64,000 nucleotides of DNA from Naegleria gruberi (taxonomy: Eukaryota): assembly GCA_000004985.1 (NCBI GenBank), contig GG738889.1; one strand, 5' to 3'. Position 1 is the stretch's first letter; each line of letters begins with the position of its first letter. Positions 2,555-21,107 of the stretch are shown in pieces. The notes beneath the pieces are model-generated. The model ran no database searches and had not been told where the DNA came from. It saw only the letters and a list, made by a program, of their open reading frames with translations. A program made the translations under genes and the position numbers.

Positions 2555-2555
2555 T

Positions 2556-3572
2556 ATTATAAATTTACAAAGAAAGAAAATCAAGGGAATTTATAATATT
2601 GGTAAACATACAGCAGAAATTTTACGTGAAGTAATATCAGGAACCAAGAAGGGAGTGATGGTACAAGAAGTGATTGATGATTGTAGATTTATAGGTAAAA
2701 AATTGATGGATGCACAACCAACAATGTTAGTAATTGGAAATGTAACAAGAAGAGTATTATTTATTATTAGAGATGAATTTGGACAATTAATATTAACTAG
2801 AAAGAAATCCACAAATATTGTAACAAGTGGAAATTTATCAAATTTACTTGAAATGAAAAGTAATATTGATTATGATGAACCATTTGAAAGTGGATTAAAA
2901 TTAAGAATAATTGAAGGAGTTAATGAATTAATTGGAGAAATGGAAGGTTTATATAAAGATATTTGTGATTTAGCAACAGAACATATACAATCAAATGAAG
3001 TCATTTTAACAATTGGATTATCACATACTGTTGAATTCTTCCTTTTAGCTGCTGCACAAAAAGGTAAAGAATTTGATGTTATTGTAACTGAAAATGCACC
3101 TTCTTATTCAGGTCATAAAATGGCACTTAAATTAAGTAAGGCTGGTATTAGAACAACTTTAATTTCAGATGCTGCTATTTTTGCAATTATGGATAGAGTT
3201 AATAAGGTTATTGTTGGTACACATGCTGTTATGGCAAATGGTGGTCTTGTTTCTCCAACTGGTACTCATCTTGTTGCTTTAGCTGCAAAAGAAAAATCAA
3301 TTCCTGTTGTTGTTTGTAATGGTTTATACAAATTAACTCCACTCTATCCTTTAGATCAAGATTCTTTCAATGATAGACATTCTCCTTTGGAAATTATCAA
3401 ATTAGAAGATGGTACTCTATTGAGAAATGTTCATGTTGTTAATCCTGCTTTTGATTACGTTCCACCTGAATTGGTCGATTTATTCATTACAAATGTTGGA
3501 AGTCATAGTCCTTCCTATGTTTATGCTCTCTTAGCTCAATATTATGATGTTAGAGATTATGTTTTAGAATAA
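2556..3572 (+). CDS. EIF2B2: translation initiation factor eIF2B beta subunit (5' end lost in gap)
   Basis: Frame is open from the gap edge (IINLQRKKIKGIYNIGKHTAEILREVISGTKKGVMVQEV...) through TAA at 3570-3572. Strong collinear match to eIF2B-beta: VGN.TRRVL.IIR.E, EVI(L)TIG.S.TVE.FL..AA.K.K.F.VIV.E.AP...GH.MA..LSKAGI.TT.I.DAAIFA.M.RVNKVI.GT....ANG.L...TGTH..ALAAK..S.P..VC, and the C-terminal V.VHNPAFDYVPPEL(I/V)(T/D)LFI(S/T)N(I/V)G...PSY(I/V)Y.L pattern. Confidence 0.85.
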   Translation: MINLQRKKIKGIYNIGKHTAEILREVISGTKKGVMVQEVIDDCRFIGKKLMDAQPTMLVIGNVTRRVLFIIRDEFGQLILTRKKSTNIVTSGNLSNLLEMKSNIDYDEPFESGLKLRIIEGVNELIGEMEGLYKDICDLATEHIQSNEVILTIGLSHTVEFFLLAAAQKGKEFDVIVTENAPSYSGHKMALKLSKAGIRTTLISDAAIFAIMDRVNKVIVGTHAVMANGGLVSPTGTHLVALAAKEKSIPVVVCNGLYKLTPLYPLDQDSFNDRHSPLEIIKLEDGTLLRNVHVVNPAFDYVPPELVDLFITNVGSHSPSYVYALLAQYYDVRDYVLE

Positions 3573-3726
3573 ATTCTTAATATTCTATTATTATTAAAAA
3601 AGATAGAACATTTATTTGTTGTTGTTTTTAAAAAAGAAACAATATACTATGACATTACATTATAATATTGGTATTAGTATTAAAAAAACATGTGTGTCTG
3701 TGTGTAAAATTGTGTGTAAATCAGAA

Positions 3727-5556
3727 TTAAATAAGTAAAGTAACAAAATCAGATGAAAAATCAATGATTGGACATGTTTTTTCAAAAGTTAAAGAAGTCA
3801 TAAAAGCATCAGATGCTTCTTCATCATCATTAAAATGTTCAGATAAAACTTTACCCAAATGATACCAAGCCAAATGATTTGTTGGATTGATACGTACAGC
3901 ATTTTGTAAATAATTTCTTGAAAGTGTTGTTTGTTTTTCATGTTTGTAAAAAATAATACCCAATCTTAAATAGGCAATTTCACAATCAGGATCATTAATT
4001 AAAGCAGCTTCATATTCAATAATTGCATCTTTAATTTTACCAGAATCTTCAAATATTCTACCTTCACATGAATGAATTAAAGCATTTGTTTTTTTAAGTA
4101 AATTAATTAATTCTTGTTGTATTTCATCTTTTTGTATTCTACCATTATTTAATAATAAATCAATTATAGTCATATAATCACGTGATGTTTTTTGAATTGG
4201 TTCAATTGATCCAATTAATTGTTGTTGTTGTTGTCTTTTTAGGTTGTGAAGCAGATGAAATTGGTTGAGTATTATTTGGTAAAAGTGTTGAAACTTTTGA
4301 TGATTCAATTTCTTCAATTTCTTCAACTAATTGAATCATTAAATCTTTAGCTTTAGACATGTTAAATGTTGCATCATCAAGTAATTTCTTTCTTCTCAAT
4401 GCTTCACTTATAAATATATAATAATTTATAATATCAATCTTTTTTTGTCTATATTCTACTATGGATATTAATTTTTTATTTTGGATTTTGATTATTATTT
4501 AATAATAAATTATTAGTATTATTAGAAGTAGTATTAGTAGTAGTATTATTTAAATTATTTAAATTAAAATCCAATCTAGTAGTATAATTATCTAAATATT
4601 TAAATAATTCATCTGATAATTTAGAATAAGTTCTAACAGATTTATTAGAATCTAATGATGCTGATGATAATATATTATTATTAATATTAATATTACTATT
4701 AATATTAATATTATCAGATTGTTCAGATGATTGTAAAGAAATATTAAAATTAAAAGATTCTAATAATTCTTCCATACGTGCATATAATAATTTTAATTTT
4801 AAATCATTTGGATATTGTTCTAAAATAATTTTAATAATTTTAAAAGATTGTAAATAATTTTGTTTTTCACTTGATGTAAATAATAATGCTAATAAAATCC
4901 ATGATTGTTTTTCATCTTGATTTAATGAAATTGATTTTTTAATATATAAAAATGATTCTTTTAATTCTCTCATTTCACTATAAATTAATGATAAATGATA
5001 ATTTAATTTATAATCATTTGAATCATATTCATTTACTTTTAATAGAATTTTAATTGATAAATTTAATANATTATTCTTTTCTGTCATGGNNNNNNNNNNN
5101 NNNNNNNNNNNNNNNNNNNNNNNNNNNNNNNNNNNNNNNAAATACTTGACCATTTAATAAATCAATATTATTTATATTCATAATTACATCTAAATCTTTA
5201 TAACTATTTAAAATAACATCTAAATTAGTTAAATTATTATTTAAAATTATATTAAAATATTCTCCTACTATATTTGTATTCTTATTTTCTATTAATTTTA
5301 ATATTTTACTATTTAAATCTTGTAATATTGTTAAATCACTTGTCATTTGATAATATTGTATTTTAGATTCTACATGTAAACAATCACTTAAATTTTTACA
5401 TCCTAATTCTTGTGCTTTTTTAGAACATTGTTCTAATTCGGATGATTGTTTATAATCATTTTGTGATCTTGCCAATGTTAATTCACGTATTATAACTTGT
5501 GATTGTAATTGTACAAGCTTTTTAGACATTTTTTTTTTATTGTTATTGTTGTTCAT
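3727..5556 (-). CDS. TTC7: TTC7-like tetratricopeptide-repeat protein (PI4K-complex scaffold family); contains a 60-N gap and two frame disruptions
   Basis: N-terminus MNNNNNKKKMSKKLVQLQSQVIIRELTLARSQ... (ATG 5556). Middle block ILLALLFTSSEKQNYLQSFKIIKIILEQYPNDLKLKLLYARME matches the TTC7 helical core. C-terminal block ALINDPDCEIAYLRLGIIFYK...NHLAWYHLGKVLSEHF...PIIDFS matches the TTC7 C-terminal TPRs and tail (..AW.GLGEVL......EA.DCF.TALELE...P..PFS). In-frame TAA at 4476 and a +1 shift near 4200-4330 (in a QQQQ/ACAACA run) suggest unresolved short introns or indel errors. The missing middle (NLQKDLHLQ...LLSKY) is only present in the duplicate copy at 7446-7750. Confidence 0.6.
5090..5149. 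other. assembly gap (60 N) inside TTC7-like gene
   Basis: Run of N. Confidence 0.99.
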
Positions 5557-7385
5557 CCGTTGGGCGCTTCTATTATATGATGATGACACCAACAACAATA
5601 ACAATAAAATTTTATTAGCCTATGGACCAAGATTCACAGGAGAAGGCTTTGGATGACGAAAAGAGAAATAGAATGCGTGAAGAACAAATGTTTGCAAACA
5701 GTGTGGAAAGGCCAGGCTTCAAAATAAGAATATTGGAGCAAAAGTAATCTTCATCATGCTAACAAAGAAAATGATTAAATCACATCTGACGTCATTTTCA
5801 TCATCAAATGCTCCTATTAATTAATTGTTAATAGCAATAATATCTTAATATTCAAAAGTTTTATTTAGATCCATTATTATCATCATCTCCATCATTAAAT
5901 AATAATTCAAAAAAATAATAATTTAAATAATTGTGGATTAATAATTGAAAATATATGTTCATCTAATTTATTAATTTAACCTATAAACAAGTCAATTAAT
6001 TGGTTGACTACTCTTAAAAGTAAACTATTCCTATATCTTTTACAATTCTCTTCAGCAATAGATTATTCTTGTTGGCTTGTTTAAAAATCTCATAAAAATC
6101 ATGACAAGAAATTGCAAAATTGAAAAGAGTTTTCACATTTCCAATAAACTCTAAAATACAATAAATCATGTCATGACTATTTACAAGTGGACTTAAATTG
6201 ATGAATGGACTTTCAGTATGATCAATAATTGAATCAATAGAATACAACATTTTCCTAAAGGCATCCAATAAATTATCATCCCATTCAATATTACAAGTTT
6301 CTCTCTTAATAATTTCAATGAGATGTTGTTTTCTATCCTCCTCTTTATCATCCTCAGAGGAATATTTAGTCTTTTTAGAAGGTGGATATGATAACTCATT
6401 ATCATTCTCATTCTCATTATTATCATTCTCATCATTACTCAAATAATCCTTGTAATGTTCTCCCAATACATTAACTAAAACTCTATCATTCACATAACAA
6501 TCAAATTCACACAATTCCAAATATCTTGTCAAGTAAATTGGATGAACATTATTCATTAGTGAATTAATTTGTTCAAAGGGTCTAACATTCTGATACTCTG
6601 CAAAACATGCATCATTAAATTGTATTGTTCGTTTTTCTCCTGAAAACATTAAAATTTTAGTTTTATCACTCAGAGTAAATAAAACTAAATGATCATCAAA
6701 TTCGGAAATGGGAAATCCCCTCATAGCATAAAAAGGTTGTTTATATGAAACGTGAGGAAGAGAGCAAACTAATTCTTCCAAATTTAAATTGTTAATAGAG
6801 GAAATTTCAATATTAGAAAGAGCTTTTTCTAGCATGGAAAAATTGATAATGTAAAAATTGTGCATGATCACCATACGTGTTCTGGCCATTTTTTTTTTTA
6901 ATTCGTAATGTTAATTCCTTTCTTTACTGGAACTAAATAGTATTCTATTTGAATGTTGAAATGGTTTATAATATTACAATGCAAATTGGTATAAACCTAT
7001 TGATTCATTTCTTAATATCAATGACCTTATGTTATTTCATTAGATGAAACTGTCAATGTCCTTAATTCTTAATAAGTAAACTATCAAAAGGAAAGATTTA
7101 CCTTTCCACTCTTACAATGAAACTGTAGAAATACTGTTTCTCCATTGGGTTGATTGGCATAATGAGGATGATTAAGTTTCGATTGAAATATGACAAGATT
7201 TTTTAATATACCCTATTACAATGGATTTAATGAAGAAATCATTAAACGGTAACAAATAAGATTTTAAAAAGATATTCCAACAAGATATTTAGAATAGATA
7301 TTTATCATTCAATAATAATTTATAAATCATCTCATTTTCTCCACTAATATTATTGAATATTATAGTGTTTTAAGAGTNGGTGTAT
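5150..7385. repeat. segmental duplication, copy 1 (TTC7 5' part + upstream region + hypothetical gene + about 500 bp downstream)
   Basis: Near-identical to 7742-10018 with scattered substitutions and several indels (e.g. 45-bp indel at 5650-5700 vs 8250-8270); bounded by N gaps on both sides. Confidence 0.8.
6014..6889 (-). CDS. hypothetical protein (duplicate copy 1), 291 aa
   Basis: Uninterrupted ORF MARTRMVIMHNFYIINFSMLEKALSNIE...; the paralogous copy at 8605-9495 conserves the frame through indels (DKTK vs DDDKTK, PPSKK vs PPPPSKK), arguing that the frame is real. No family recognised. Confidence 0.55.
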   Translation of the reverse strand: MARTRMVIMHNFYIINFSMLEKALSNIEISSINNLNLEELVCSLPHVSYKQPFYAMRGFPISEFDDHLVLFTLSDKTKILMFSGEKRTIQFNDACFAEYQNVRPFEQINSLMNNVHPIYLTRYLELCEFDCYVNDRVLVNVLGEHYKDYLSNDENDNNENENDNELSYPPSKKTKYSSEDDKEEDRKQHLIEIIKRETCNIEWDDNLLDAFRKMLYSIDSIIDHTESPFINLSPLVNSHDMIYCILEFIGNVKTLFNFAISCHDFYEIFKQANKNNLLLKRIVKDIGIVYF

Positions 7386-7445
7386 GGAGTAATAANNNNN
7401 NNNNNNNNNNNNNNNNNNNNNNNNNNNNNNNNNNNNNNNNNNNNN
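7386..7445. other. assembly gap (60 N)
   Basis: Run of N. Confidence 0.99.
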
Positions 7446-8158
7446 TAATATTTAGATAATAATTGTAAAATATTAATTTTAATAATAGGTTGTAATAAAT
7501 TTTTTAATTGAATTAATTTTAAAATTAAATTAATTCCTTGATCAATATTATTTTTTAATAAAATTTCAATTTGATTAAAAATTTCTAATTGAATTTTATA
7601 ATTATTAAAACTATCAATTTTATCAATAATATTTGAATATTTAATTAAATGATCAATTAAAATATTACTTTTTTTAATAGATAAACATTTAAAATAAATG
7701 AATATATATGGTAATTGTAAATGTAAATCTTTTTGTAAATTAAATACTTGACCATTTAATAAATCAATATTATTTATATTCATAATTACATCTAAATCTT
7801 TATAACTATTTAAAATAACATCTAAATTAGTTAAATTATTATTTAAAATTATATTAAAATATTCTCCTACTATATTTGTATTCTTATTTTCTATTAATTT
7901 TAATATTTTACTATTTAAATCTTGTAATATTGTTAAATCACTTGTCATTTGATAATATTGTATTTTAGATTCTACATGTAAACAATCACTTAAATTTTTA
8001 CATCCTAATTCTTGTGCTTTTTTAGAACATTGTTCTAATTCGGATGATTGTTTATAATCATTTTGTGATCTTGCCAATGTTAATTCACGTATTATAACTT
8101 GTGATTGTAATTGAACAAGCTTTTTAGACATTTTTTTTTTATTGTTATTGTTGTTCAT
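7446..8158 (-). CDS. duplicated 5' portion of TTC7-like gene (copy 2; truncated at gap; either a gene fragment/pseudogene or the true continuation mis-placed by assembly)
   Basis: Same N-terminus as 5160-5556 (MNNNNNKKKMSKKLVQ...) and extends further (…NGQVFNLQKDLHLQLPYIFIYFKCLSIKKSNILIDHL...LLSKY) up to the gap. Confidence 0.4.
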
Positions 8159-10018
8159 CCGTTGGGCGCTTCTATTATATGATGATGGTGATGACACCAA
8201 CAACAATAACAATAAAATTTTATTAGCCTATGGACCAAGATTCACAGGAGAAGGCTTTGGATGACGAAAGAAGAGGAAAGGCCAGGCTTCAAGATGAGCA
8301 AAAGTAATCTTCATCATGAGCTGCTAACAAAAGAAAATATTAAATCACATCTGACGTCATTTTCATCAATGCTCCTATTAATTAATTAATTGTTAATAGC
8401 AATAATATTGTTGAAGATATTCTTTTACATGAAAATTAATATTCAAAAGTTTTATTTAGATCCATTATTATCATCATCTCCATCATTAAATAATAATTCA
8501 AAAAAATAATAATTTAAATAATTGTGGATTAATAATTGAAAATATATGTTCATCTAATTTATTAATTTAACATATAAACAAGTCAATTAATTGGTTGACT
8601 ACTCTTAAAAGTAAACTATACCTATATCTTTTACAATTCTCTTCAGCAATAGATTATTCTTGTTGGCTTGTTTAAAAATCTCATAAAAATCATGACAAGA
8701 AATTGCAAAATTGAAAAGAGTTTTCACATTTCCAATAAACTCTAAAATACAATAAATCATGTCATGACTATTTACAAGTGGACTTAAATTGATGAATGGA
8801 CTTTCAGTATGATCAATAATTGAATCAATAGAATACAACATTTTCCTAAAGGCATCCAATAAATTATCATCCCATTCAATATTACAAGTTTCTCTCTTAA
8901 TAATTTCAATGAGATGTTGTTTTCTATCCTCCTCTTCATCATCCTCAGAGGAATATTTAGTCTTTTTAGAAGGTGGTGGTGGATATGATAACTCATTATC
9001 ATTCTCATTTTCATTATTACTATCATTCTCATCATTACTCAAATAATCCTTGTAATGTTCTCCCAATACATTAACTAAAACTCTATCATTCACATAACAA
9101 TCAAATTCACACAATTCCAAATATCTTGTCAAGTAAATTGGATGAACATTATTCATTAGTGAATTAATTTGTTCAAAGGGTCTAACATTCTGATACTCTG
9201 CAAAACATGCATCATTAAATTGTATTGTTCGTTTTTCTCCTGAAAACATTAAAATTTTAGTTTTATCATCATCACTCAGAGTAAATAAAACTAAATGATC
9301 ATCAAAATCGGAAATGGGAAATCCCCTCATAGCATAAAAAGGTTGTTTATATGAAACGTGAGGAAGAGAGCAAACTAATTCTTCCAAATTTAAATTGTTA
9401 ATAGAGGAAATTTCAATATTAGAAAGAGCTTTTTCTAGCATGGAAAAATTGATAATGTAAAAATTGTGCATGATTACCATACGTGTTCTGGCCATTTTTT
9501 TTTAATTCGTAATGTTAATTCCTTTCTTTACTGGAACTGAATAGTATTCTTTTTGAATGTTGAAATGGTTTATAATATTACATTGTGAATTGGTTATAGA
9601 ATGTAATAACCCATTGATTTACATTTCTTAATATCATTGACTATTTATTATTTCATTAGATGAAACTGTCAATGTCCTTAATTCTTAATAAGCAAACTAT
9701 CAAAGGAAAGATTTACCTTTCCACTCTTACAATGAAACTGTAGAAATACTGTTTCTCCATTGGGTTGATTGGCATAATGAGGATGATTAAGTTCGATTGA
9801 AATATGACAAGATTCTTTAATATACCCTATTACAACGAATTTAATGAAGAAATCATTAAACGGTAACAAATAAGATTTTAAAAAGATATTCCAACAAGAT
9901 ATTTAGAATAGATATTTATTATTCAATACTAATTTATAAATCATCTCATTTCCTCCACTAGTATTATTGTATATATTATTGAATATTATTGTGTTTTAAG
10001 AGTGGTGTATGGAGTAAT
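7742..10018. repeat. segmental duplication, copy 2
   Basis: See copy 1. 7360-7385 (left of the gap) matches 9993-10018, so the unit end is defined. Confidence 0.8.
8605..9495 (-). CDS. hypothetical protein (duplicate copy 2), 296 aa
   Basis: Paralogue of 6014-6889; differs by 3 in-frame indels and 2 substitutions. Confidence 0.55.
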   Translation of the reverse strand: MARTRMVIMHNFYIINFSMLEKALSNIEISSINNLNLEELVCSLPHVSYKQPFYAMRGFPISDFDDHLVLFTLSDDDKTKILMFSGEKRTIQFNDACFAEYQNVRPFEQINSLMNNVHPIYLTRYLELCEFDCYVNDRVLVNVLGEHYKDYLSNDENDSNNENENDNELSYPPPPSKKTKYSSEDDEEEDRKQHLIEIIKRETCNIEWDDNLLDAFRKMLYSIDSIIDHTESPFINLSPLVNSHDMIYCILEFIGNVKTLFNFAISCHDFYEIFKQANKNNLLLKRIVKDIGIVYF

Positions 10019-10062
10019 AAAAACCTTATTTCCCATTTCTCCACATTACTCAGCTGAAATGG

Positions 10063-10071
10063 TTTGGCGCC
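10063..10071. promoter_or_regulatory. E2F-consensus half site TTTGGCGCC in 5' region of gene 10105
   Basis: GC-rich 9-mer in AT-rich context; member of the recurring TTTGGCGCCAAA family (see findings). Confidence 0.3.
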
Positions 10072-10104
10072 TTTCTGCTTTCGTGCATTTTTTGTAAAAA
10101 TAAC

Positions 10105-10836
10105 TTGGAGAGATGTTGTTTAAGAGTCAATAAAGACGATCAAAGCCTAAAAAAAAAAGTGACCACTCTCAACAATAGCATCCAGCACAGATACCTTATA
10201 CTATCATCATTGTTAATAATATTGATTGTTGATTTTGTGTTTATATCACTTTGTTTGTGGATGTTTATTCGTTCCTTTAATGAAACAGTTCACTACGGTG
10301 AAATGGTACAATTATTGAATATGAGAACGAAGGCTGTTGTAGAACAACGTGATTATCATTGTCAACATTCAAGTTATAGACAGGGTGGTGATGTATATTG
10401 TTCATCTTTAATAAGATTATTTAATTCCGAACCTTTTAATATACCAGATTCTTATTTTGGTAATTTGAATATTTTAAATCAAACTATATTAAGAAATACT
10501 AATGATTATCAATTATTAGAAAAAATACCAAATAATGGTGAATTTATTCATGTTTATATTCATGTCAATACAACTCCATTAACTTCACCTTTTATTTCAT
10601 TTTCAATTTATGAAAATTTAAAAGAATTACAAAATTTAAATGTTACTTCACCTGCCTTTTTAGGAGGATCTGTTGGTATTCTATGTATTGCAATTGCCAT
10701 AACTTTTTTAATTATTGCTATAATTATTGGATGGAGAATTAAATTAAAACAATTAAGAGATTTTCATTTAATTGATATTTTATTAATTAATTCAAATGGA
10801 ATACAAGTTAAAAAAGATGGTTCAATTAATGTTTAA
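10105..10836 (+). CDS. hypothetical membrane protein (two predicted TM helices); start codon unresolved
   Basis: ORF open from 10021; first ATG in frame only at 10261 (MFIRSF...), yet the upstream in-frame segment encodes a TM helix (YLILSSLLIILIVDFVFISLCLW), so a spliced 5' exon is likely. C-terminal TM GILCIAIAITFLIIAIIIGW. Confidence 0.3.
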   Translation: MERCCLRVNKDDQSLKKKVTTLNNSIQHRYLILSSLLIILIVDFVFISLCLWMFIRSFNETVHYGEMVQLLNMRTKAVVEQRDYHCQHSSYRQGGDVYCSSLIRLFNSEPFNIPDSYFGNLNILNQTILRNTNDYQLLEKIPNNGEFIHVYIHVNTTPLTSPFISFSIYENLKELQNLNVTSPAFLGGSVGILCIAIAITFLIIAIIIGWRIKLKQLRDFHLIDILLINSNGIQVKKDGSINV

Positions 10837-11359
10837 TTTTTATGCCCTATTATGTAGTTTATATTATTTATTATTATTTATTATTTATTTTACTATTTAT
10901 TTACTATTTATTTTTCTATTTTTTATATTTATTATTTATATTTAAATTTCAAATTGATAAAGTAATAATTGCAAGTCAATATTCCAATTTGAAATTAAAA
11001 AACAAACACACATAACATCAAATAAAATATTTTCAAGTTTTACTTCTCACTATCTAGATATCAATATTATGAACATTATCAATTCACAACCAAACTCCAC
11101 TGTGACCATCACAAATGAAGATTACAAAATGGTGGTGAAACGCCACAAAATCTTGAAGGAGTTTTTTCATCCAATCAAATTTTATCACAGATACAATCGC
11201 GTTTCTCTCTGTTTTTAAAAAAATCTCCAACAACAACAACACATCACCACCACAATTATTGTCGTTGCGCTATAAAGTTCATCATCTCATTATCATCATT
11301 GAATTCATCATCACACCAGTCAAAATATTTTCATCACTATCCAATATATTAGAAAAGAG

Positions 11360-13369
11360 ATGAAAATCCATAACAAATTATCATCAAGACCACACTCACT
11401 ATTAATTATTCTACTACTATTATCTATTATAGTAATACTATTATTTAACAATGTCAACAATAATAAGGTAACATGTCAAGTTAATATAAATAAAATTATT
11501 GAAATGACAAATAAATTAACAGAATATATATCAAATGAACAATCATTAAAAGATTTACCATTTAAATCATTTCCAATTCAATTTGCTGAACAAGCAGGTT
11601 TATATAAATCATATATTCATATGAATAATGGTGGATATGATTATGAATCTATTTTATTAAGAAGATATGCTAAAATACCTGATTTGAATATGTTTGTTAC
11701 TAATTTTGTTATTTTAACACAAATTGAATCTAATTATTTAATTACTAATTCTAAATATAGTAATAAAATTACAAATATATTAAATTTAGATAGATTAAAT
11801 TTAGCAATTAAAGCTATTTTAACATATCATGATAATAATTTTAATGAAAGTGTTCCAGTTTATAACTTTTGGCCTCAAAAATTATTACCAAATTCAAAAT
11901 ATTATCAAGCTTATCCAATTAATTTAATTGAACCTTTAAATGAATTTGGTTCAATGGAAAAGTATATTGAAGAATTATTAAAATTTCTAAAATTGGAAAA
12001 TTTATTAGAAAAAGTTGAAGATTTAATTGAAAGTTTTCAATTTCTAGCTCAAGCTTTTCATATTCCAGCTGATTATGATGATACTTCATGTAATTTAGCA
12101 TTAGGTTCAATGTTATTTAAATATTTAAATAATAATCAAGAATTAATTAATTTATGGAAATCTAAAAATGTTGATTATGATTCTTTATTTAAAATTTATG
12201 AAAGATTTGCCTATCATTTAATTGTTAATAATAATCATAATAATAATCATAATAATAATCAACTAGAACATCAAGAAGAACATCAAGAAGAACATCAAAA
12301 AGTGAACAATGAACAACATCAAAATATTATTGATCCAAGATCTTATTTTATTTTTCATAAATTTTTTGAAAATAATTTAAATATTAAATTACCAATGACA
12401 TGGTTAATGGATATTAAACAAGATAGAGATAGATTTCCAGCAGTAGCACAACCATTTAATGTTAATAATGTTGATTTGAGTGTTTTAACTAATTTTATAT
12501 TTGGAGTATCTGCACATACTTTAAATGGAAATGAGTTATTATTAGATTCACATCCAATTATAGAACAAATGTTATTAAATGCAAGTAAAATAATTGAATA
12601 TTCAATTATGAATGAAATTGAATCTAAAAGACCTGATTTATCACTTGTTTATTATCCAAGTGTTTATGATTTTTATTGGTTTATTTCTAGAACTAGTTTC
12701 CTTTTAAAGAATTCTAATACTAAATCAAGAATATTATTAGAAATTTCTAAAATATTTGATAATATTTTAATTAAATATATTACAAATAATTTATTAAATT
12801 TATCTAAAAAGAATGAAAAGAATGAAATTTATTGGGATGATTTTTTAGGAGATTTTAAAGAAAAAGAATTAGGAGAAGATAGATTATTTTCAACATCATT
12901 AGCATTATCAACATTATTAGATACATGGACAAATTTAGAAAATAATAGAAGAGTATGGAATCCATCCATTCCATTACATGTTAAAAATTTAATTGAAAAT
13001 GGAATTTTATATTTACAAGAAAATTTATTTTCATTTTGGTCAATTTATGAAAATGCATTCTTTTCAGGATCAGTGAAAGGATCAAATGATTATCCATTTT
13101 ATTATCCAATGAATTATTGTGAATTTTTAAATGGTACTATTTTAAAACCAATTGATCCTAATATGATTACTGATGATTTAATTGTTGGTATGGAGGGTTT
13201 AATTTCACCTCAACAATATGATTTATATTTAAAACAATTATGGTTTAATGAATCTGTACCTACCAAATTTAATGGTTTTGAAAAGGAAACATTTCCATTT
13301 TGGAGTTCACCTGCTTTGACTTATTCTATTACTCAATTGGTTTTTTCAAAATATTTAAGTTTAAATTAA
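11360..13369 (+). CDS. hypothetical secreted/type-II membrane protein, 669 aa (N-terminal signal anchor)
   Basis: Long uninterrupted ORF MKIHNKLSSRPHSLLIILLLLSIIVILLF..., with an HNNNHNNNQLEHQEEHQEEHQ low-complexity insert; no family recognised from sequence. Confidence 0.55.
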   Translation: MKIHNKLSSRPHSLLIILLLLSIIVILLFNNVNNNKVTCQVNINKIIEMTNKLTEYISNEQSLKDLPFKSFPIQFAEQAGLYKSYIHMNNGGYDYESILLRRYAKIPDLNMFVTNFVILTQIESNYLITNSKYSNKITNILNLDRLNLAIKAILTYHDNNFNESVPVYNFWPQKLLPNSKYYQAYPINLIEPLNEFGSMEKYIEELLKFLKLENLLEKVEDLIESFQFLAQAFHIPADYDDTSCNLALGSMLFKYLNNNQELINLWKSKNVDYDSLFKIYERFAYHLIVNNNHNNNHNNNQLEHQEEHQEEHQKVNNEQHQNIIDPRSYFIFHKFFENNLNIKLPMTWLMDIKQDRDRFPAVAQPFNVNNVDLSVLTNFIFGVSAHTLNGNELLLDSHPIIEQMLLNASKIIEYSIMNEIESKRPDLSLVYYPSVYDFYWFISRTSFLLKNSNTKSRILLEISKIFDNILIKYITNNLLNLSKKNEKNEIYWDDFLGDFKEKELGEDRLFSTSLALSTLLDTWTNLENNRRVWNPSIPLHVKNLIENGILYLQENLFSFWSIYENAFFSGSVKGSNDYPFYYPMNYCEFLNGTILKPIDPNMITDDLIVGMEGLISPQQYDLYLKQLWFNESVPTKFNGFEKETFPFWSSPALTYSITQLVFSKYLSLN

Positions 13370-13440
13370 TGATTAAACTTTGATAATAAATTATTCATTG
13401 GTTTTTTATTGTTGTATGATATTTAATTAATGATAAATTT

Positions 13441-14439
13441 ATGTTGAATAAAAATATATTTAATAAATTTAAAAATGTAATTCTTTTAAAATTTAACTTG
13501 GAAAAAAAAATGAAACAATTTAAACAGTCCATTAATTTATTGAAATTATTGAATAATAATAAAACAACTATTAATAGTTCTTCCACTGCATTCAAATCAA
13601 TTATAATCAATAATAACAATTATGGATTTAATAGAGTAAATAATTATCATCATCATTCCATTCTTCAATTGAACAATAATAATAACAATACGGAACAAAA
13701 GAATACTATTAGTACATCCAATAATAATATTAATATTAATAATAATAATAATAATAGTACTCAACAACAATTAGAAGAACAAAAATTTGTCATTTCCGAA
13801 GATGTTGAAAGTACTCCATCATCATCATTAAATAATAATACTAATACAACCAATAATAATAATACTTTTAATAAGAATCAACAACGTATTAGAATTATTA
13901 ATTCATCATCTAATAATTCCAATTCTTCATCATCATCATCTTATAAATTTACAAAAACACTTAAATATTCAATAATATTTACAATAGCATCTGTTGTAAT
14001 ATATATTATAGTAGAAACTAATAATGATAGAATGAATTATTATGTATCACCATCTAAAGTAATGGATAATCGTCAAGATTTTCCACCTGATCGTAAAATT
14101 AGAATTGGAGGTATTGTTAAAGAGGGAACAATTCAACATGGTGAAAATAATTTTCTTACAATATTTAAAATTACAGATTTGAAATATGATATTGAAATTG
14201 AATATAAAGGTGTTTTACCTGATTTATTTGAAGAAAATAGTACTGCTATTTGTGAAGGTTTTATGCTTGGACATTCTAAATTGAAATGTACTAATATTTT
14301 AGCTAAACATGATCAGAGAAATGGAATGCCACCTGAAATTGCATATGAAGTTGAAAAGAATAGAAGAGAAATGGAAAGAAGAAAATTAAATCAAGAACAA
14401 GAAAGTTCTAAGCATCATCACATTGAAAGTGAAATTTAA
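13441..14439 (+). CDS. ccmE: cytochrome c-type biogenesis protein CcmE (System I haem chaperone), N/S-rich N-terminal extension
   Basis: TM helix IIFTIASVVIYIIV, then YYVSPSKV...PDRKIRIGGIVKEGTIQHG.NNFLTIFKITD..YDIEIEYKGVLPDLFEE..TAICEGFM......C.NILAKHDQRNGMPPEI. This is collinear with E. coli CcmE FYTPGEI..P.VRLGG.V.PGSV.R......V.F.I.D....V.V.Y.GILPDLFREGQGVV..G.L.......A.EVLAKHDENY.PPEV. Alternative start at 13510. Confidence 0.8.
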   Translation: MLNKNIFNKFKNVILLKFNLEKKMKQFKQSINLLKLLNNNKTTINSSSTAFKSIIINNNNYGFNRVNNYHHHSILQLNNNNNNTEQKNTISTSNNNININNNNNNSTQQQLEEQKFVISEDVESTPSSSLNNNTNTTNNNNTFNKNQQRIRIINSSSNNSNSSSSSSYKFTKTLKYSIIFTIASVVIYIIVETNNDRMNYYVSPSKVMDNRQDFPPDRKIRIGGIVKEGTIQHGENNFLTIFKITDLKYDIEIEYKGVLPDLFEENSTAICEGFMLGHSKLKCTNILAKHDQRNGMPPEIAYEVEKNRREMERRKLNQEQESSKHHHIESEI

Positions 14440-14783
14440 TTCATGTTTTTTATCTTATGTTTTTTTATCATGTTTTTTATCATTGAGTGTTTGGTATTTC
14501 TATAAAAAAATAATTCATTTTCTTTCATGTTTAGTATAAAAGTTACAATGAACAATTTCATAAATCATATCAAATATATCATGGATAGAATGTCATTGAT
14601 ATGAAAATAAATTAATATCAATTTTTCAAAAAGTAATTATTGAGAATATTATTCATCACTCCAATCATATCAATTTACCATTGAAATTGATGAGAGAAAA
14701 TCAACTATTCAATAGCAGCACCAACCAAGGCTTTGGATTTTAAAAAAAATATTGTAAAAAAAAATAACCTCAAAAAATATAGA

Positions 14784-15735
14784 ATGAACGTACCAAAGCA
14801 ATCTATGCGTCATTTAATTGGTTCCCTGTTTCGTGAAGCAGGTGAAGCCATGGATCGTGTTGGATGTTTCTTGCAAGGAAGTTTGGCATACAAGGAAGAT
14901 TGTTAGTGTCTATATTTTTTTAAATTAATTTTAATAACAACAATAATATAATGATGACTCTTTATTAACAAATAATCATACAATTTTCATCAATCTATTT
15001 TAATATTAACAACAAATACATCAAATATATACAGTAAATAGAACTAGAAGAGTTATGAAATTCAAGAATTTTAAACCATCCGTTCAACCATCATCTTTCA
15101 TTGCTCCAAATGCCAGCGTTATTGGTTCAGTTTCTCTTGGTCCAAATTCATCTGTTTGGTACAATGTTGTTATAAGAGGTAGGTTTATATATTGTGAATG
15201 ATGATAAATTTATCAAATATTAGGTGATGTTAATTCTATACAAATCGGAGAAAATACCAATATTCAAGACAGAGTTATTATTCACTGTACAGGCAAGGTT
15301 GGCCACGAAAAGCCAACAATTATTGGAAATAATGTTACTGTTGAAAGCGGTGCTATTTTACATGCTTGTACTTTAGAAGATGAGTCTTATATTGGTTTTG
15401 GTGCCACTGTTTTGGATGGTGCTGTTGTTGGAAGAGGAGCTATGATTGCACCAGGTGCTGTTGTGACACCAGGAACTATTGTTCCAGGTGGTGAAATTTG
15501 GGCTGGTGTTCCTGCTAAGAAACTTCGTGAATTGACTCCAGAAGAACAAGAATCTATTAAGAAGTCTGCTGCTGAACTCTCAGAATTGGCTCAAGTCCAC
15601 AAGCAAGAACAAGATAAGGAATTCGAAGAATTGTTGCACGATATGGAAACATTCAAATTCCGTGAAGATAGACTCGAAGAATACACTTATGAAAAGGTTG
15701 AATCTCCATCAAGCACTGCTCCAACCAAGAATTAA
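14784..15735 (+). CDS. gamma-type carbonic anhydrase (left-handed beta-helix; complex I gamma-CA subunit family), 3 exons
   Basis: join(14784..14901,15035..15178,15224..15735). Exon 1, missed by the ORF track, encodes MNVPKQSMRHLIGSLFREAGEAMDRVGCFLQGSLAYKED, matching plant gamma-CA N-termini (G.ALDRVGS.LQGS). The donor T|GTTAGT and acceptor ACAG| give L-NRTRRVMKFKNFKPSVQPSSFIAPNASVIGSVSLGPNSSVWYNVVIRG-DVNSIQIGENTNIQD..., matching plant LSRHRTLMNVFDKSPLVDKDVFVAPSASVIGDVQ.G.GSSIWYGCVLRGDVN. Hexapeptide repeats continue to the stop at 15733. Confidence 0.8.
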
Positions 15736-15857: not shown

Positions 15858-17207
15858 TTAATCTTCACCATAAACTGATTGAGATTGACCATCAGTCACA
15901 TCATGTTGAATTATTTGTCTATCAATACTCGCTGTGAATGCTGTCGAGCCATCATATGACCAGCATGCACTGGTTACCATCAATTCATGACCTCTCAATG
16001 TATTATGACAATGACCACTCAAATCATAAATTTTAGCCACACGTTTATCCAAAGAAACTAACATTCTCTGGTGGTATTCAGATATTGAAATATTATTGAC
16101 ACCTCCTGATTTGATTGGAATAGTCTTGACTGGTTTTGTCATGTTTCTATAATCAAAAATACGTAACTCTCCATTGTCTGTTCCTGTTATAATGAATCTA
16201 TCACTTGGAGTAAAGGCAACACAATTAACAGGATCTGAATGGGATTTGAGTGACGAAATTGGAGATTTTGAGTCTGAATGAGAGTCCCATAAAAATACAT
16301 TACCATCAGATGAAGCACAAGCAATTAATGATGACTGATAAGCACATGTAACATCATTAAGGTAGGCAGTTTCTACAGGTGAGTTTATCTTTTGAATTTC
16401 TCTTAATTCCAAATCTAACATTCTAACACAACCATCCCAACATGATGTAATAATATTATCACCACGATTGTGATGGGTGAAATCACAACTAGAAATGATA
16501 CCCTTATGTGATTCTGTATTTTTTACGTGTGGATTTCTGAGATAGGTTGGCCTATTTCTTATCATACCTTGAACACCCTCTAAAGTATTGGTTATGATTT
16601 TAACAATATATTCACAAAGTAATATCAATGTTGTTGTTGTTATATTGAACAAAGTAATAAAACATACCTTCAGTAATATAATATTTTTGTAACTCGTTAA
16701 GACTATCATCATTTTCACTATCTGTATTTACACCTTCATTTTGATAAGCTTTAAAATCAATATGACTATCTAATAAATCTTGTGTAAATAAATCATGTTG
16801 AGTTTCATTAAAAGATTCATCAAATTCAGTGCTTGTTTTGTGAATATTATCTATAGATGGTAATTTAGAATGTCTATTAAATGGTTTAAATCTATTACTA
16901 GAATCATCATCATATTCATTTTCTCCAACATATTGTCCACTTGTTGATTGATTTAAAGTGAGAGCATTATTTTGTTTTAAAGTATCAGCAAATTTCCATA
17001 AATGTACAGATTGATCACCTGAAACAGAACAAATCATTTGCGAAGTTGGATGAAATTTGATTCTATTTACAGCTCCACTATGTCCCTTATAAACAAGTAA
17101 TGGATTAAGATGAGAAAAATTAGATCCCCATAAACAACATGTTGAATCTGCTGAAGCTGTTGCAAACAGTGGTGTTGATGTGTCAATACTACAAACAGGT
17201 GACATTT
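15858..17207 (-). CDS. WD40-repeat protein, 2 exons
   Basis: complement(join(15858..16579,16668..17207)). ATG at 17207 (MSPVCSIDTSTPLFATASADSTCCLWG...). Donor AAG|GTATGT and acceptor TTTAG| remove an 88-nt intron and join ...KYYITE-E-GVQGMIRNRPTYL. Multiple WD signatures (GHSGAVNRIKFHP, SCWDGCVRMLD, ACASSDGNVFLWD, ITGTDNGELRIFD, FTASIDRQIIQHD). Confidence 0.6.
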
Positions 17208-17354
17208 TAATATCAAACACTGCATCTCTGTGAAATAAATATTTTCTAACAATTTTCTTATTATCTGGTTGTCTATCATTATTGAAATAATATTACAATG
17301 AGATAAATAACATCATATTGTTGATATATTAGTAGTCTACATATTGAAATAAAC

Positions 17355-18456: not shown

Positions 18457-21107
18457 ATGTTGGACAAATTCTTCTCTGAAATATTTCTCTCCTATTGTAG
18501 TGATACTCAGCAGCGACCCGAGAGAGAATTAGCCTTGAATTTAAAACAATTATTGGAAAAGAATTGTACTGAGGAAAAATTTATTTTAAGATCTCAAAGA
18601 ATTGGTATTGCAACAGCTAATAGTTTAGCAAGGTATTTTGCTCAAACTGTTAGTAAAGATAGCCCTCTTCATGTTTTGGATCTTCATGAAAATGTCATCC
18701 GAGACAAGGGCGTTCAAGCATTAATAGATGAATTAAAATCATTAAATACTGTAAAAATACTTGATTTAGGTAGTAATGATTTAGGATCAGAATCAGCCAT
18801 CCTTATTGCTGATTACCTTAAAAAACCTGATTGTAAAGTATGTATTAGTATATTATTTATATTATATCAATTATACTTATATCAATTTTCTTGAATATTA
18901 TAGTTAGAATCTTTGATACTAGGAAGTAGTGATTCAGACTTGTATGCAAATAAGATTGAAGCAGAAGGTGGTGTTTCAATTGCCGAGGCTTTATCATCAA
19001 ACTTTACTTTACATACTCTCGATTTTAATAGAAATTCTCAACTAGGAAGAAAAACTCAACAAGCATTCTTTGCTTTAGCAGATGCTTTTGATGAAAATAA
19101 GACAATTAGCTGTTTACGATTGGGACAAACTAATATGGGTTCTGTAGCTGCTGTCAATGTTATTCAATCATTGGAAGGTAATTCAAATTTGAGATATTTA
19201 GATTTACACGGAAATGATTTACCTGTAGATATTGCTGAAAGTCTTGGAAAATTAACATGCACCTGTAAAAACCTATCTGTTTTACTATTACAAAATAATT
19301 GCTTGAAACAAACAGGTGCAGAAATATTATGTAACTTCCTTAAACAAAATACTTTCATTACTGTACTTAATTTGGCTGGAAATGAAATTGGAAACGAAGG
19401 AGCATCATATGTTGCAGATTATCTGTCATGTAAACATACTTTAGTTTACTTGAATTTGAGTAAAAATCAAATAACTGAGGAAGGTATAATTACCATTGCA
19501 CAGGCTATTAATTGTCCTCAAAATACTTTACACTCTTTAAATTTGAGTAATAATAGAGTGGGAAATAGTGGTGCAAAGGCTTTAGCAAAATGTGTAGAAT
19601 ATGACCAATGTGGAATAGTTAACTTGGAATTGAATTCTTGTGGAATTGGTGATCAAGGAGCTGTATCCCTCTGTCTTTCTTTGACATGTAACACAACTCT
19701 GTTGTATATGAAAGTACACAACAATCATATTTCTGAAGGTAAGTTTTTTTCGAACCATTGCTGAATAATGTTGGAAATAGAGGCTGGAAAGGCAGTTCTA
19801 GACTTGCTGGAAAAAAATCATACACTCATGTCTTTTGATGTGAGGGGAAATCAATTAGACCACCCAACCTATTTGAAAATTAAGAAGGTTTTACAACGAA
19901 ATAAGACTGATAAAATGTTGATTGAACCAAATAAGTTAAAAAAGGAAGTAATTAGATTGAAATATGTACAAAAACTTCTTCAAGATGCATCAAAAGAACT
20001 CGAATATCAAGAAAATATTAGACTTGAAACTACTTCAAAAGTGGAAAGGATCAATGAACGAATTAAGGTAATAACAGAAGAAACAGACTCTTCTGCTTCA
20101 GATATAATTTCTCAAATTAAGGAGGAACAGAAAAGAATTGACTTTTTCCAAGATAGAATAACGGCAGTAATGGAGGATAAAAAGCAGAAGAATGCTAAAA
20201 ACGAGCAATTGATGAAAATTAAAATGGACAATCATCAAAAAGAATTGGATGGTAAGTTTATTGAATATTTCATGAATATTTACTTGTTGATAGCTAAAGC
20301 AGAGATTGAGGAAGAACTTAACGACGCCAGAGAAATGTTGCAAGACACAAGAAAAAGAAAAGAAATTGAAATCAAGTAAGTTACACTCACAATTATTGTT
20401 ATCAATATTTACAACTATTCAGAACATTGCAAGAAAAAATCAAATCAGTTAAACTCGCAGCTCAAGATGAAGAAAAGAAGAGAGAAAAACATTCAATGGA
20501 GATTGTAGATATTAGAGTTAGACTTCATGATATTGAAACTGAATTTATTAAACAGTTTGGAGAGGATCATCAAGAGAAAATTGATCAAATGTATATGGAA
20601 ATGAAGAAAGAAGATGAAGAAACGTTTGTTAGACTTGGATCTAAAACTAATCTTTTGGTGGATATGGAAGCTTTAAAGAAAGCTAAAAGTAGTACTACAC
20701 CAGGTACAAGTCACCCCTCAAAGGATTCTTCAAAAGATTCAGGAAAAACAACACCACATTCATCAACAGCAACAGCAACAACATCAACGACAGGTGTTGG
20801 AATTAGTGGAACTAGCTCAACAACAAGACCTACAACACCAAAAGAACCATCAAGTGGAAAGGATACACCAAAAACTCCAAAGGACACCAAGGATACAAGT
20901 ACAAAAACTGGACGATCTTCAACTATTGCAACAACTGGAAGAAGAAAGAGTCCACCTTCAGGAACCAGAAGAAATACTTCAACAACTCCTTCAACACCTC
21001 CACCAATTACTAATGTTGACACAAAGACACCTCCACCATCGAATAATCAAGGAAAGATGAGAGTTACCAATTTGAGTATATACGATTCTACACTGTCAAA
21101 TAAATAA
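18457..21107 (+). CDS. RNI-type leucine-rich-repeat protein with coiled-coil and S/T/P-rich tail (LRRC45-like architecture), 5 exons
   Basis: join(18457..18837,18904..19738,19781..20251,20294..20375,20423..21107); donors AAA|GTATGT, G|GTAAGT, G|GTAAGT, AA|GTAAGT; all acceptors AG with preserved phase. RI-like LRRs (LDLHENVIRDKGVQAL, LDLHGNDL, LNLAGNEIGNEGASYVADYL, LNLSKNQITEEGI, LNLSNNRVGNSGAKALA), then a heptad-rich segment, then a T/S/P tract. Confidence 0.65.

What the first reader, a model, noticed from the sequence alone, without database searches (positions are those of the whole stretch)
13441..14439. Nuclear gene for CcmE (System I cytochrome c maturation) with a non-canonical haem-binding motif
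The ORF is unmistakably CcmE: TM anchor, then an OB-fold with VRLGG-type, LPDLF and LAKHD blocks. System I has a patchy distribution in eukaryotes (land plants, some algae, ciliates, jakobids, some other excavates); most others use holocytochrome c synthase. A nuclear ccmE therefore constrains the lineage and implies mitochondrial or nuclear ccmA/B/C/F/H partners. The conserved H-x-x-x-Y haem-ligand motif (E. coli HDENY; Tyr134 ligates haem iron) is HDQRNGM here: the His is kept, the Tyr is absent, and one residue is inserted. The protein also carries a roughly 150-aa N/S-rich N-terminal extension before the TM helix.
Basis: partly seen in the sequence, partly recalled or inferred. Interest (0 to 1): 0.6.

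Follow-up and report, generated by a model that had tools for sequence, protein, structure and literature searches.

The report
Naegleria CcmE lacking its haem-ligand tyrosine
This is the nuclear gene for the mitochondrial haem chaperone CcmE of the amoeba Naegleria gruberi, an expected gene, but in Naegleria and Willaertia the almost universally conserved haem-ligand tyrosine is replaced by Asn-Gly and the altered motif is kept under strong selection.

Summary
The ORF at 13441-14439 (+) is real and is a CcmE homologue: Pfam PF03100 E=4.7e-24, E. coli CcmE structures E=2e-16, and an AlphaFold model that best matches CcmE in the E. coli CcmABCDE complex. From Met24 (13510) it is identical to Naegleria gruberi XP_002673590.1, a 'predicted protein', so the window is N. 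gruberi nuclear DNA. Published Naegleria mitochondrial genomes encode ccmC and ccmF, so a nuclear ccmE is expected.

The motif observation also holds. The sequence reads H-D-Q-R-N-G-M-P-P-E where other CcmEs read H-x-x-x-Y-M-P-P-E. It is not a sequencing error: N. lovaniensis (syntenic), Willaertia magna and one metagenomic relative have the identical peptide, encoded with synonymous codon differences. Non-synonymous change in this tail is 0-0.08 per site against 0.37-0.93 synonymous. Of 265 aligned CcmE relatives, 260 keep the Tyr, and these four are the only full-length exceptions. Their sister sequences keep HDQRY and HDARY, so the loss happened once.

My verdict is an already catalogued gene carrying an apparently unreported natural variant of the haem-binding tail. 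The Tyr is reported to be dispensable in E. coli, but a one-residue insertion near the His abolishes haem attachment there. Interest is moderate. CcmA/B/H and HCCS could not be checked with these tools.

The parts
13441..14439 (+).
   Evidence: The nearest in-frame upstream stop is at 13417.
13510..14439 (+). Probable true CDS (309 aa plus stop), identical to N. gruberi XP_002673590.1 / EFC40846.1 / UniProt D2VQC0 (NAEGRDRAFT_71172)
   Evidence: P0003 is 100% identical and 309 aa long; its names come. The ATG has the context AAAAAAAAATG. The orthologues start MKKL/MSKL at the aligned position.
13510..13692 (+). Basic N-terminal stretch with no acidic residues (61 aa, 6 Lys/Arg); inferred mitochondrial presequence
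   Evidence: All four orthologues have no Asp/Glu in their first 51-61 residues. Three have an R-x-F-[HQ]-[ST] site at residues 38-48. Targeting is an inference and was not predicted with a dedicated tool.
13693..13956 (+). Asn/Ser/Thr-rich, poorly conserved low-complexity linker before the membrane anchor
   Evidence: N+S+T is 53% over aa 24-175. Amino-acid identity to the orthologues is 27-33% and pN is 0.44-0.54.
13957..14013 (+). Single transmembrane anchor (ORF aa 173-191)
   Evidence: Hydropathy maximum of 2.03. The AlphaFold model has a helix at model residues 2-26. It aligns with the membrane helix of E. coli CcmE in 8ce8_E.
14032..14319 (+). CcmE OB-fold domain (Pfam PF03100, ORF aa 198-293)
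14308..14310 (+). Codon of the conserved haem-attachment histidine (ORF His290 = His267 of the 309-aa protein; E. coli His130)
   Evidence: The His column holds His in 263 of 265 relatives and is conserved here.
14320..14325 (+). AAT GGA = Asn-Gly, occupying the place of the single conserved Tyr (E. coli Tyr134)
   Evidence: The codons are AAT GGA or AAT GGC in all four taxa.
14332..14433 (+). Long C-terminal helix following the haem-binding loop; its first part (PEIAYEVEKNRRE.ER.KL) is nearly invariant in the clade
   Evidence: AlphaFold helix at model residues 129-162. In the 30-codon tail window pN is 0-0.08 against pS 0.37-0.93.

Best explanation
This is the Naegleria gruberi nuclear gene for CcmE, the mitochondrial haem chaperone of System I cytochrome c maturation.

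Inferred pathway. The protein is imported through a basic N-terminal presequence and anchored in the inner membrane by one helix, with its OB-fold domain in the intermembrane space. There it receives haem from the mitochondrially encoded CcmC, binds it covalently through the conserved His (His290 of the ORF), and passes it to the mitochondrially encoded CcmF for attachment to cytochromes c and c1.

The variant. In the common ancestor of Naegleria and Willaertia the HxxxY motif changed to H-D-Q-R-N-G, so the Tyr was replaced by Asn-Gly with a net insertion of one residue. The new tail has been held almost invariant since then. Holo-CcmE in this clade must therefore carry haem without the tyrosinate axial ligand. 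Either no protein ligand is used, or a neighbouring residue takes over; the invariant Met two residues further on is the most obvious candidate. The re-spaced tail is probably co-adapted to the clade's CcmC and CcmF.

Shown here: homology, fold, His conservation, Tyr loss, clade distribution and purifying selection. Inferred: localisation, covalent haem binding, and the identity or absence of a replacement ligand.
For: Identity as CcmE:
- Pfam CcmE E=4.7e-24.
- E. coli and Shewanella CcmE structures E=2e-16 to 1e-14.
- AlphaFold model with pLDDT 86.7, showing a membrane helix, a five-strand barrel, a flexible loop and a helix. Its best PDB match is CcmE in CcmABCDE, 8ce8_E, E=1.6e-10, TM 0.69/0.71.

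Organism and orthology:
- Identical to an N. gruberi protein.
- Syntenic with N. lovaniensis, sharing the 667/669-aa upstream gene and a TPR gene.
- The HDQRNGMPPE motif is identical in N. lovaniensis, W. magna and metagenomic P0001, with synonymous codon differences.

Selection and distribution:
- In the domain pN is 0.17-0.21 against pS 0.45-0.91. In the tail pN is 0-0.08 against pS 0.37-0.93.
- 260 of 265 relatives have Tyr, and the only full-length exceptions are these four.
- In a neighbour-joining tree the four form a clade (100/100). It is sister to the Tyr-keeping P0004 and P0151 (100/100) and nested among plant and red-algal CcmE.

Literature:
- Naegleria mitochondrial DNA encodes ccmC and ccmF (PMC5421314).
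- The CcmC-interface residues Asp101 and Glu105 (PMC6204919) are conserved here.
- The Tyr side chain can be removed in E. coli without loss of function (PMC3601427).
Against: - No biochemical or expression evidence for this protein was found.
- The presence of CcmA, CcmB, CcmD and CcmH, and the absence of HCCS, in N. gruberi could not be checked with these tools.
- The bacterial NCBIfam equivalog cut-offs are not reached: 105 bits against 126-310.
- In E. coli, inserting one extra alanine near the haem-binding His abolishes haem attachment (PMC3601427). A one-residue longer tail is therefore not obviously compatible with the canonical mechanism.
- The CcmC-interface residue Arg73 is His here, and Arg104 is Glu or Gln.
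- Mitochondrial targeting rests only on composition.
Confidence: 0.8

Rival explanations
1. The gene is a decaying or repurposed relic: a CcmE homologue that no longer acts in cytochrome c maturation, as might follow a switch to System III (HCCS). Loss of the Tyr would then reflect relaxed or altered function.
For: The hallmark Tyr is missing and the tail is re-spaced. A comparable insertion kills haem attachment in E. coli (PMC3601427). Switches between System I and System III are recurrent in eukaryotes, and other heteroloboseans (BB2, Pharyngomonas) use HCCS (PMC5421314; PMC10879542). HCCS status in Naegleria was not tested here.
Against: There is strong purifying selection across four taxa, and it is strongest exactly in the variant tail. 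The haem-binding His and the CcmC-interface Asp and Glu are retained. Naegleria mitochondrial DNA keeps ccmC and ccmF, which have no known role without CcmE. A repurposed but still selected function cannot be formally excluded.
Confidence: 0.1
2. A different side chain has taken over axial ligation, so the chaperone is mechanistically canonical with a relocated ligand. Candidates are the invariant Met at His+6, or the Tyr/Phe at His+12.
For: Met296 is invariant in all four taxa. An aromatic residue (Tyr in three, Phe in W. magna) lies at His+12 at the start of the conserved helix. The loop has lower pLDDT (about 69), consistent with a flexible tail able to fold over the haem. Phe replaces Tyr134 in about 3% of CcmEs (PMC6204919).
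Against: The Met is also present in 235 of 265 canonical CcmEs that do have the Tyr, so it is not a clade-specific compensation. The His+12 position is not invariant. There is no spectroscopic evidence.
Confidence: 0.3
3. The motif is a sequencing or assembly error, or the gene is a bacterial contaminant.
For: None beyond the unusual motif.
Against: The peptide is identical in three independent assemblies, with synonymous codon differences. The locus is syntenic with N. lovaniensis. The CDS has 23% GC and a eukaryote-type N-terminal extension. The flanking genes are eukaryotic: a gamma carbonic anhydrase, a WD40 protein and an LRR protein. No prokaryote genome carries the variant pattern.
Confidence: 0.01

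Closest known systems
Canonical bacterial CcmE (E. coli CcmE, PDB 1SR3 / 8CE8 chain E; HxxxY type)
   Same: It has the single N-terminal membrane helix, the OB-fold barrel, and the RxGG, LPDLF and LAKHD blocks. The covalent haem-binding His sits in a flexible tail. The CcmC-interface residues Asp101 and Glu105 are conserved.
   Different: The Tyr134 equivalent is replaced by Asn-Gly, with one extra residue between the His and the M-P-P-E block. Arg73 is His and Arg104 is Glu. There is an N-terminal extension of about 150 aa and a long conserved C-terminal helix.
Plant and red-algal mitochondrial CCME (nuclear-encoded, e.g. the Linum and Cyanidiococcus sequences recovered here; Arabidopsis AtCCME from general knowledge)
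   Same: It is nuclear-encoded, with an N-terminal extension ahead of the membrane anchor. It groups with these sequences in the tree. Its partners ccmC and ccmF are in the mitochondrial genome.
   Different: Plant and red-algal proteins keep HDEKY. Plants carry an insertion within the barrel that is absent here.
Closest Tyr-keeping protist relatives P0004 (EukProt) and P0151/P0005 (Logan, ENA)
   Same: They are 40-62% identical and share YVSP..ENRE..PP.RK, CEGFM and HDQR/HDAR. They are the sister group with 100/100 bootstrap support.
   Different: They read HDQRY-LP and HDARY-MP, which is canonical HxxxY spacing with the Tyr. Their source organisms are not identified.
CxxxY variant CcmE of archaea and Desulfovibrio (System I*)
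   Same: It is the one well-known natural variant of the CcmE haem-binding motif, and it shows that the motif can change together with its partner proteins (PMC9084895; PMC3884852).
   Different: That variant replaces the His with Cys and keeps the Tyr. Here the His is kept and the Tyr is lost.

Membership tests
CcmE protein family (Pfam PF03100) | Sequence match to the family model above the curated gathering score | tested here: met
   85.1 bits against a cut-off of 24.6, E=4.7e-24, covering profile positions 1-95 of 99.
CcmE protein family (Pfam PF03100) | N-terminal single membrane anchor followed by an OB-fold beta-barrel | tested here: met
   Hydropathy peak at aa 173-191. The AlphaFold model has a helix followed by five strands, pLDDT 86.7. 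The top Foldseek hits are 8ce8_E, 1lm0, 1sr3 and 1j6q, all CcmE.
System I haem chaperone CcmE (functional class) | Conserved haem-attachment residue (His130, or Cys in the CxxxY type) in the LAKH(D) tail | tested here: met
   His290 aligns with E. coli His130, and the column holds His in 263 of 265 relatives.
System I haem chaperone CcmE (functional class) | Tyr four residues after the attachment residue (H/CxxxY), the axial iron ligand of released holo-CcmE | tested here: not met
   The column holds Asn and is followed by an inserted Gly, whereas 260 of 265 relatives have Tyr. The same holds in three orthologues. The protein is therefore a homologue and presumed orthologue, but not a canonical HxxxY CcmE.
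System I haem chaperone CcmE (functional class) | CcmC-interaction residues Arg73, Asp101 and Glu105 (PMC6204919) | tested here: inconclusive
   Asp101 and Glu105 are conserved. Arg73 is His, as in 27 other family members. The covarying Arg104 is Glu or Gln.
System I haem chaperone CcmE (functional class) | Co-occurrence with CcmC and CcmF in the same organism | not testable with these tools
   The literature states that Naegleria mitochondrial DNAs encode ccmC and ccmF (PMC5421314; PMC7900873). The organelle and the rest of the nuclear genome could not be searched here. No ccm gene was found among the ten neighbouring ORFs scanned.
System I haem chaperone CcmE (functional class) | Covalent haem binding and transfer to apocytochrome c | not testable with these tools
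   This requires biochemistry.
NCBIfam bacterial CcmE equivalogs (NF009729, NF009727 and others) | Score above the curated equivalog cut-off | tested here: not met
   The best score is 105.1 bits against a cut-off of 171; the next is 100.9 against 126. These models are tuned to bacterial subfamilies, so a shortfall is expected for a divergent eukaryotic orthologue.

The most novel reading that the evidence does not exclude
In Naegleria and Willaertia, System I runs with a holo-CcmE that has no tyrosinate ligand and a tail one residue longer, a change that abolishes haem attachment in E. coli. This would mean that the CcmC/CcmF machinery of this clade has co-evolved to a different haem hand-over geometry. 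The ATP-driven 'P-His2 to Tyr134 ligand switch' proposed for release of holo-CcmE would then be either not universal or bypassed, for example if CcmAB is absent from these mitochondria.
Probability: 0.3. Interest if true: 0.55.

Novelty: new variant of a known kind. Interest (0 to 1): 0.4.

Why it matters
CcmE is the central haem carrier of System I, and the HxxxY motif is treated as its signature. Current structural models of haem release from CcmABCD end with Tyr134 becoming the iron ligand (PMC9616876).

A clade in which the Tyr has been replaced and the tail re-spaced, yet held nearly invariant by selection, is a ready-made natural experiment on two questions. The first is whether tyrosine ligation is needed at all. 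The second is how tail geometry is matched to CcmC and CcmF.

The clade includes the genus of the brain-eating amoeba N. fowleri. That species' own sequence was not recovered here, but its closest relative N. lovaniensis has the variant. Human mitochondria use HCCS rather than System I, so a lineage-specific feature of an essential respiratory-chain assembly factor could have applied interest.

Against this, the gene is already in public databases, System I in Naegleria is known, and the Tyr is dispensable in E. coli. The finding refines existing knowledge and does not overturn it.

Tried and rejected
- A third homologue search with only the 48-aa variant tail returned nothing, because no candidate shared three 5-residue words. 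It therefore gave no extra clade members such as N. fowleri.
- Scanning JGI metagenome contigs for the back-translated K-H-D-x-x-N-G-M-P-P-E pattern gave 0 hits. The scan of prokaryote genomes also gave 0. The canonical control pattern worked.
- An exact look-up of the 332-aa ORF found nothing, because the public model starts at Met24.
- Literature searches for the locus tag and accessions, CcmE with Naegleria or Dictyostelium, and CcmE with Heterolobosea, Willaertia or Discoba found no description of this variant.
- Several key papers were not held: Fritz-Laylin 2011, Mavridou 2013, Enggist 2003 and Allen 2008. The exact E. coli Tyr134 and alanine-insertion data are therefore cited only through reviews.
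- My initial guess from composition, that the window was Dictyostelium, was rejected once the exact match to N. gruberi appeared.
- Sequencing error, contamination and pseudogene were considered and rejected.
- CcmA/B/D/H and HCCS in Naegleria could not be tested, because no tool searches eukaryotic genomes by family.
- I did not measure distances from candidate replacement ligands to the His in the AlphaFold model.

Full report
**1. What is in the sequence**

The window carries an uninterrupted ORF at 13441..14439 on the + strand, 332 aa long. Codons 14308-14325 read CAT GAT CAG AGA AAT GGA, which is H-D-Q-R-N-G.

Several independent tests identify the protein as CcmE.
- Pfam's CcmE model (PF03100) matches aa 198-293 at 85.1 bits, against a gathering score of 24.6.
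- The solved E. coli and Shewanella CcmE structures match at E=2e-16 to 1e-14.
- An AlphaFold model built on a 120-sequence alignment has mean pLDDT 86.7. It shows a membrane helix, a five-strand barrel, a lower-confidence loop holding HDQRNGMPP, and a long C-terminal helix.
- The model's best PDB match is CcmE in the E. coli CcmABCDE cryo-EM complex, 8ce8_E (E=1.6e-10, TM 0.69/0.71), followed by three further CcmE structures.

The hydropathy maximum is at aa 173-191. The preceding region is 49-53% Asn+Ser+Thr.

**2. Where it comes from**

An exhaustive HMMER search of 1.84 billion cluster representatives returned a 309-aa protein that is 100% identical over the query. This is Naegleria gruberi XP_002673590.1 / EFC40846.1 / UniProt D2VQC0, annotated only as 'predicted protein NAEGRDRAFT_71172'. 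The window is therefore N. gruberi nuclear DNA.

The public model starts at Met24 of the ORF, at position 13510. That ATG has an A-rich context and aligns with the MKKL/MSKL starts of the orthologues, so it is the more likely start.

The N. lovaniensis orthologue is 68% identical over the domain, and UniRef names it a cytochrome c-type biogenesis protein. It lies in the same gene order: a 667-aa unknown protein upstream (57-73% identical to the window's 669-aa ORF), and a TPR gene further up.

Other genes in the window near the ORF are ordinary eukaryotic nuclear genes. The gene immediately downstream encodes a gamma carbonic anhydrase of the mitochondrial complex I type, split by introns. WD40 and LRR proteins lie further downstream. 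None of the ten neighbouring ORFs scanned matched a ccm or HCCS family.

**3. The motif**

E. coli reads LAKH130-D-E-N-Y134-T-P-P-E, and most relatives read HDE[NK]Y-M-P-P-E. The window reads LAKH-D-Q-R-N-G-M-P-P-E. Three alignment methods all place Asn, plus an extra Gly, where the Tyr should be.

I aligned all 265 CcmE relatives under 400 aa recovered together with E. coli CcmE. Of these, 260 carry Tyr in that column and one is truncated. The only full-length exceptions are four sequences:
- N. gruberi
- N. lovaniensis
- Willaertia magna (P0154)
- a metagenomic sequence, P0001

This sample consists of the best-scoring hits and is not a random draw from the family. It agrees with the published statement that Tyr134 is 'almost entirely conserved (in ~3% of cases it is a Phe)' (PMC6204919).

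A back-translated pattern for K-H-D-x-x-N-G-M-P-P-E has no match in one genome from each of 185,579 bacterial and archaeal species, nor in the JGI metagenome contigs.

**4. It is not an error and not a relic**

The four taxa encode the identical peptide LAKHDQRNGMPPE with synonymous differences: CAT/CAC, GAT/GAC, CAG/CAA, GGA/GGC and CCA/CCT/CCG.

| Region | pN (non-synonymous differences per site) | pS (synonymous differences per site) |
|---|---|---|
| Membrane helix plus CcmE domain | 0.17-0.21 | 0.45-0.91 |
| 30 codons from LAKHD onward | 0-0.08 | 0.37-0.93 |
| N-terminal extension | 0.44-0.61 | 0.67-0.84 |

The variant tail is thus the most strongly constrained part of the protein, while the N-terminal extension evolves fast (19-38% amino-acid identity).

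In a neighbour-joining tree the four Asn-Gly sequences form a clade in 100 of 100 bootstraps. That clade is sister, again 100/100, to two protist-type sequences that keep the Tyr: P0004 with HDQRY and P0151 with HDARY. The whole group sits among plant and red-algal mitochondrial CcmEs.

The simplest history is a vertically inherited mitochondrial CcmE in which Tyr was replaced by Asn-Gly once, on the stem of the Naegleria/Willaertia lineage.

**5. Context in the pathway**

I could not search the rest of the N. gruberi genome or its mitochondrial DNA with these tools. The literature is explicit on two partners: Naegleria mitochondrial DNAs encode ccmC and ccmF. The heteroloboseans BB2 and Pharyngomonas lack both genes and express HCCS instead, and Acrasis mitochondrial DNA also lacks them (PMC5421314; PMC4202320; PMC7900873).

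A nuclear ccmE is therefore the expected missing piece, as in plants and in the jakobid Andalucia (PMC10879542; PMC7050145). Whether Naegleria has CcmA, CcmB, CcmD or CcmH, or any HCCS, remains untested here.

**6. How it most likely works**

Shown here:
- The fold, the membrane anchor and the haem-attachment His are conserved.
- Two of the three residues mapped to the CcmC interface, Asp101 and Glu105, are conserved. Arg73 is His, and the covarying Arg104 is Glu or Gln (residues from PMC6204919).

Inferred:
- The first 61 residues from Met24 contain six Lys/Arg and no acidic residue. The same holds for the first 51-61 residues of all orthologues. Three orthologues have an R-x-F-[HQ]-[ST] site at residues 38-48. 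From general knowledge this fits a matrix-targeting presequence.
- The protein would then sit in the inner membrane with its barrel in the intermembrane space. It would take haem from CcmC onto His290 and deliver it to CcmF.

The tyrosinate ligand that E. coli holo-CcmE acquires on release (PMC9616876; PMC3884852) cannot form here. Two published E. coli observations frame this, both from PMC3601427:
- Inserting one extra alanine near the His abolishes haem attachment and cytochrome c synthesis.

The Naegleria tail combines a tolerated change with a change of the kind that is lethal in E. coli, and it is then frozen by selection. This points to co-adaptation with the clade's own CcmC and CcmF.

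There are two candidates for a substitute ligand. One is the invariant Met at His+6, but 235 of 265 canonical proteins also have this Met. The other is the Tyr/Phe at His+12. A ligand-free or water-ligated haem is equally possible.

**7. Comparison with what is known, and novelty**

By homology and synteny this is a member of the CcmE family and the presumed orthologue of mitochondrial CCME. It fails one signature feature, the Tyr of HxxxY. It also does not reach the cut-offs of the bacterial NCBIfam equivalog models.

The one well-known natural motif variant, CxxxY in archaea and Desulfovibrio, changes the His and keeps the Tyr (PMC9084895). This is the converse case.

No paper in the searchable library mentions the locus or this variant. 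The library is incomplete, however, and the most relevant survey (Allen et al. 2008) was not available.

**8. Verdict**

The gene itself is already catalogued and expected. The Asn-Gly replacement of the haem-ligand Tyr, clade-wide and strongly conserved, appears to be an unreported natural variant of moderate interest.

Noticed in passing
window 14733-15735 (+): The gene immediately downstream of ccmE encodes a gamma carbonic anhydrase of the mitochondrial complex I type. Its last exon matches PDB 9f5x_s at E=2e-19 and plant CA1/CA2 at about 1e-16. The gene is split by introns: ORF fragments lie at 14733-14906 and 15412-15735. Two nuclear genes for mitochondrial respiratory-chain biogenesis or structure therefore sit side by side. 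This neighbour is not syntenic in the N. lovaniensis locus.
   Followed up: partly
window 11360-13369 (+): A 669-aa ORF just upstream has no Pfam match. It is 57-73% identical to the 667-aa gene that also precedes ccmE in N. lovaniensis (L002 7760-9873). It carries an Asn/His/Glu-rich repeat insert (NNNHNNNHNNNQLEHQEEHQEEHQ). This is a conserved protein of unknown function restricted, as far as seen, to this lineage.
   Followed up: partly
window 1-14000 versus 14001-64000: There is a marked compositional step. GC is 12-27% in the first 14 kb, which includes the ccmE CDS at 23% GC, and 30-38% in the rest of the window. The low-GC part is rich in poly-Asn coding runs.
   Followed up: no
P0050, P0009, P0007, P0030 (one search hits): Some database proteins contain two or more CcmE-like domains. 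P0050 (233 aa) and P0009 (357 aa) have tandem barrels, only the last of which carries HDE.Y. A Vigna protein has three partial repeats. One 3829-aa protein has 11 matched stretches. These may be duplications or annotation artefacts; I did not examine them.
   Followed up: no
window 14269-14271 (Cys in AICEGF); L001, L002, L003 orthologues: A Cys at the E. coli Val111 position (I/V-C-E-G-F) is shared by the four Asn-Gly sequences and their Tyr-keeping relatives P0004, P0151 and P0006, whereas E. coli has V-V-Q-G. A conserved Cys in a protein exposed to the intermembrane space might matter for redox or haem handling. I did not analyse this further.
   Followed up: no
window 15858-17220 (-) and 18913-19764 (+): A WD40-repeat gene, split into two ORFs by a probable intron or frame change, and an LRR_6-type leucine-rich-repeat gene lie downstream. 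Both are ordinary nuclear genes and are unrelated to cytochrome c maturation.
   Followed up: no
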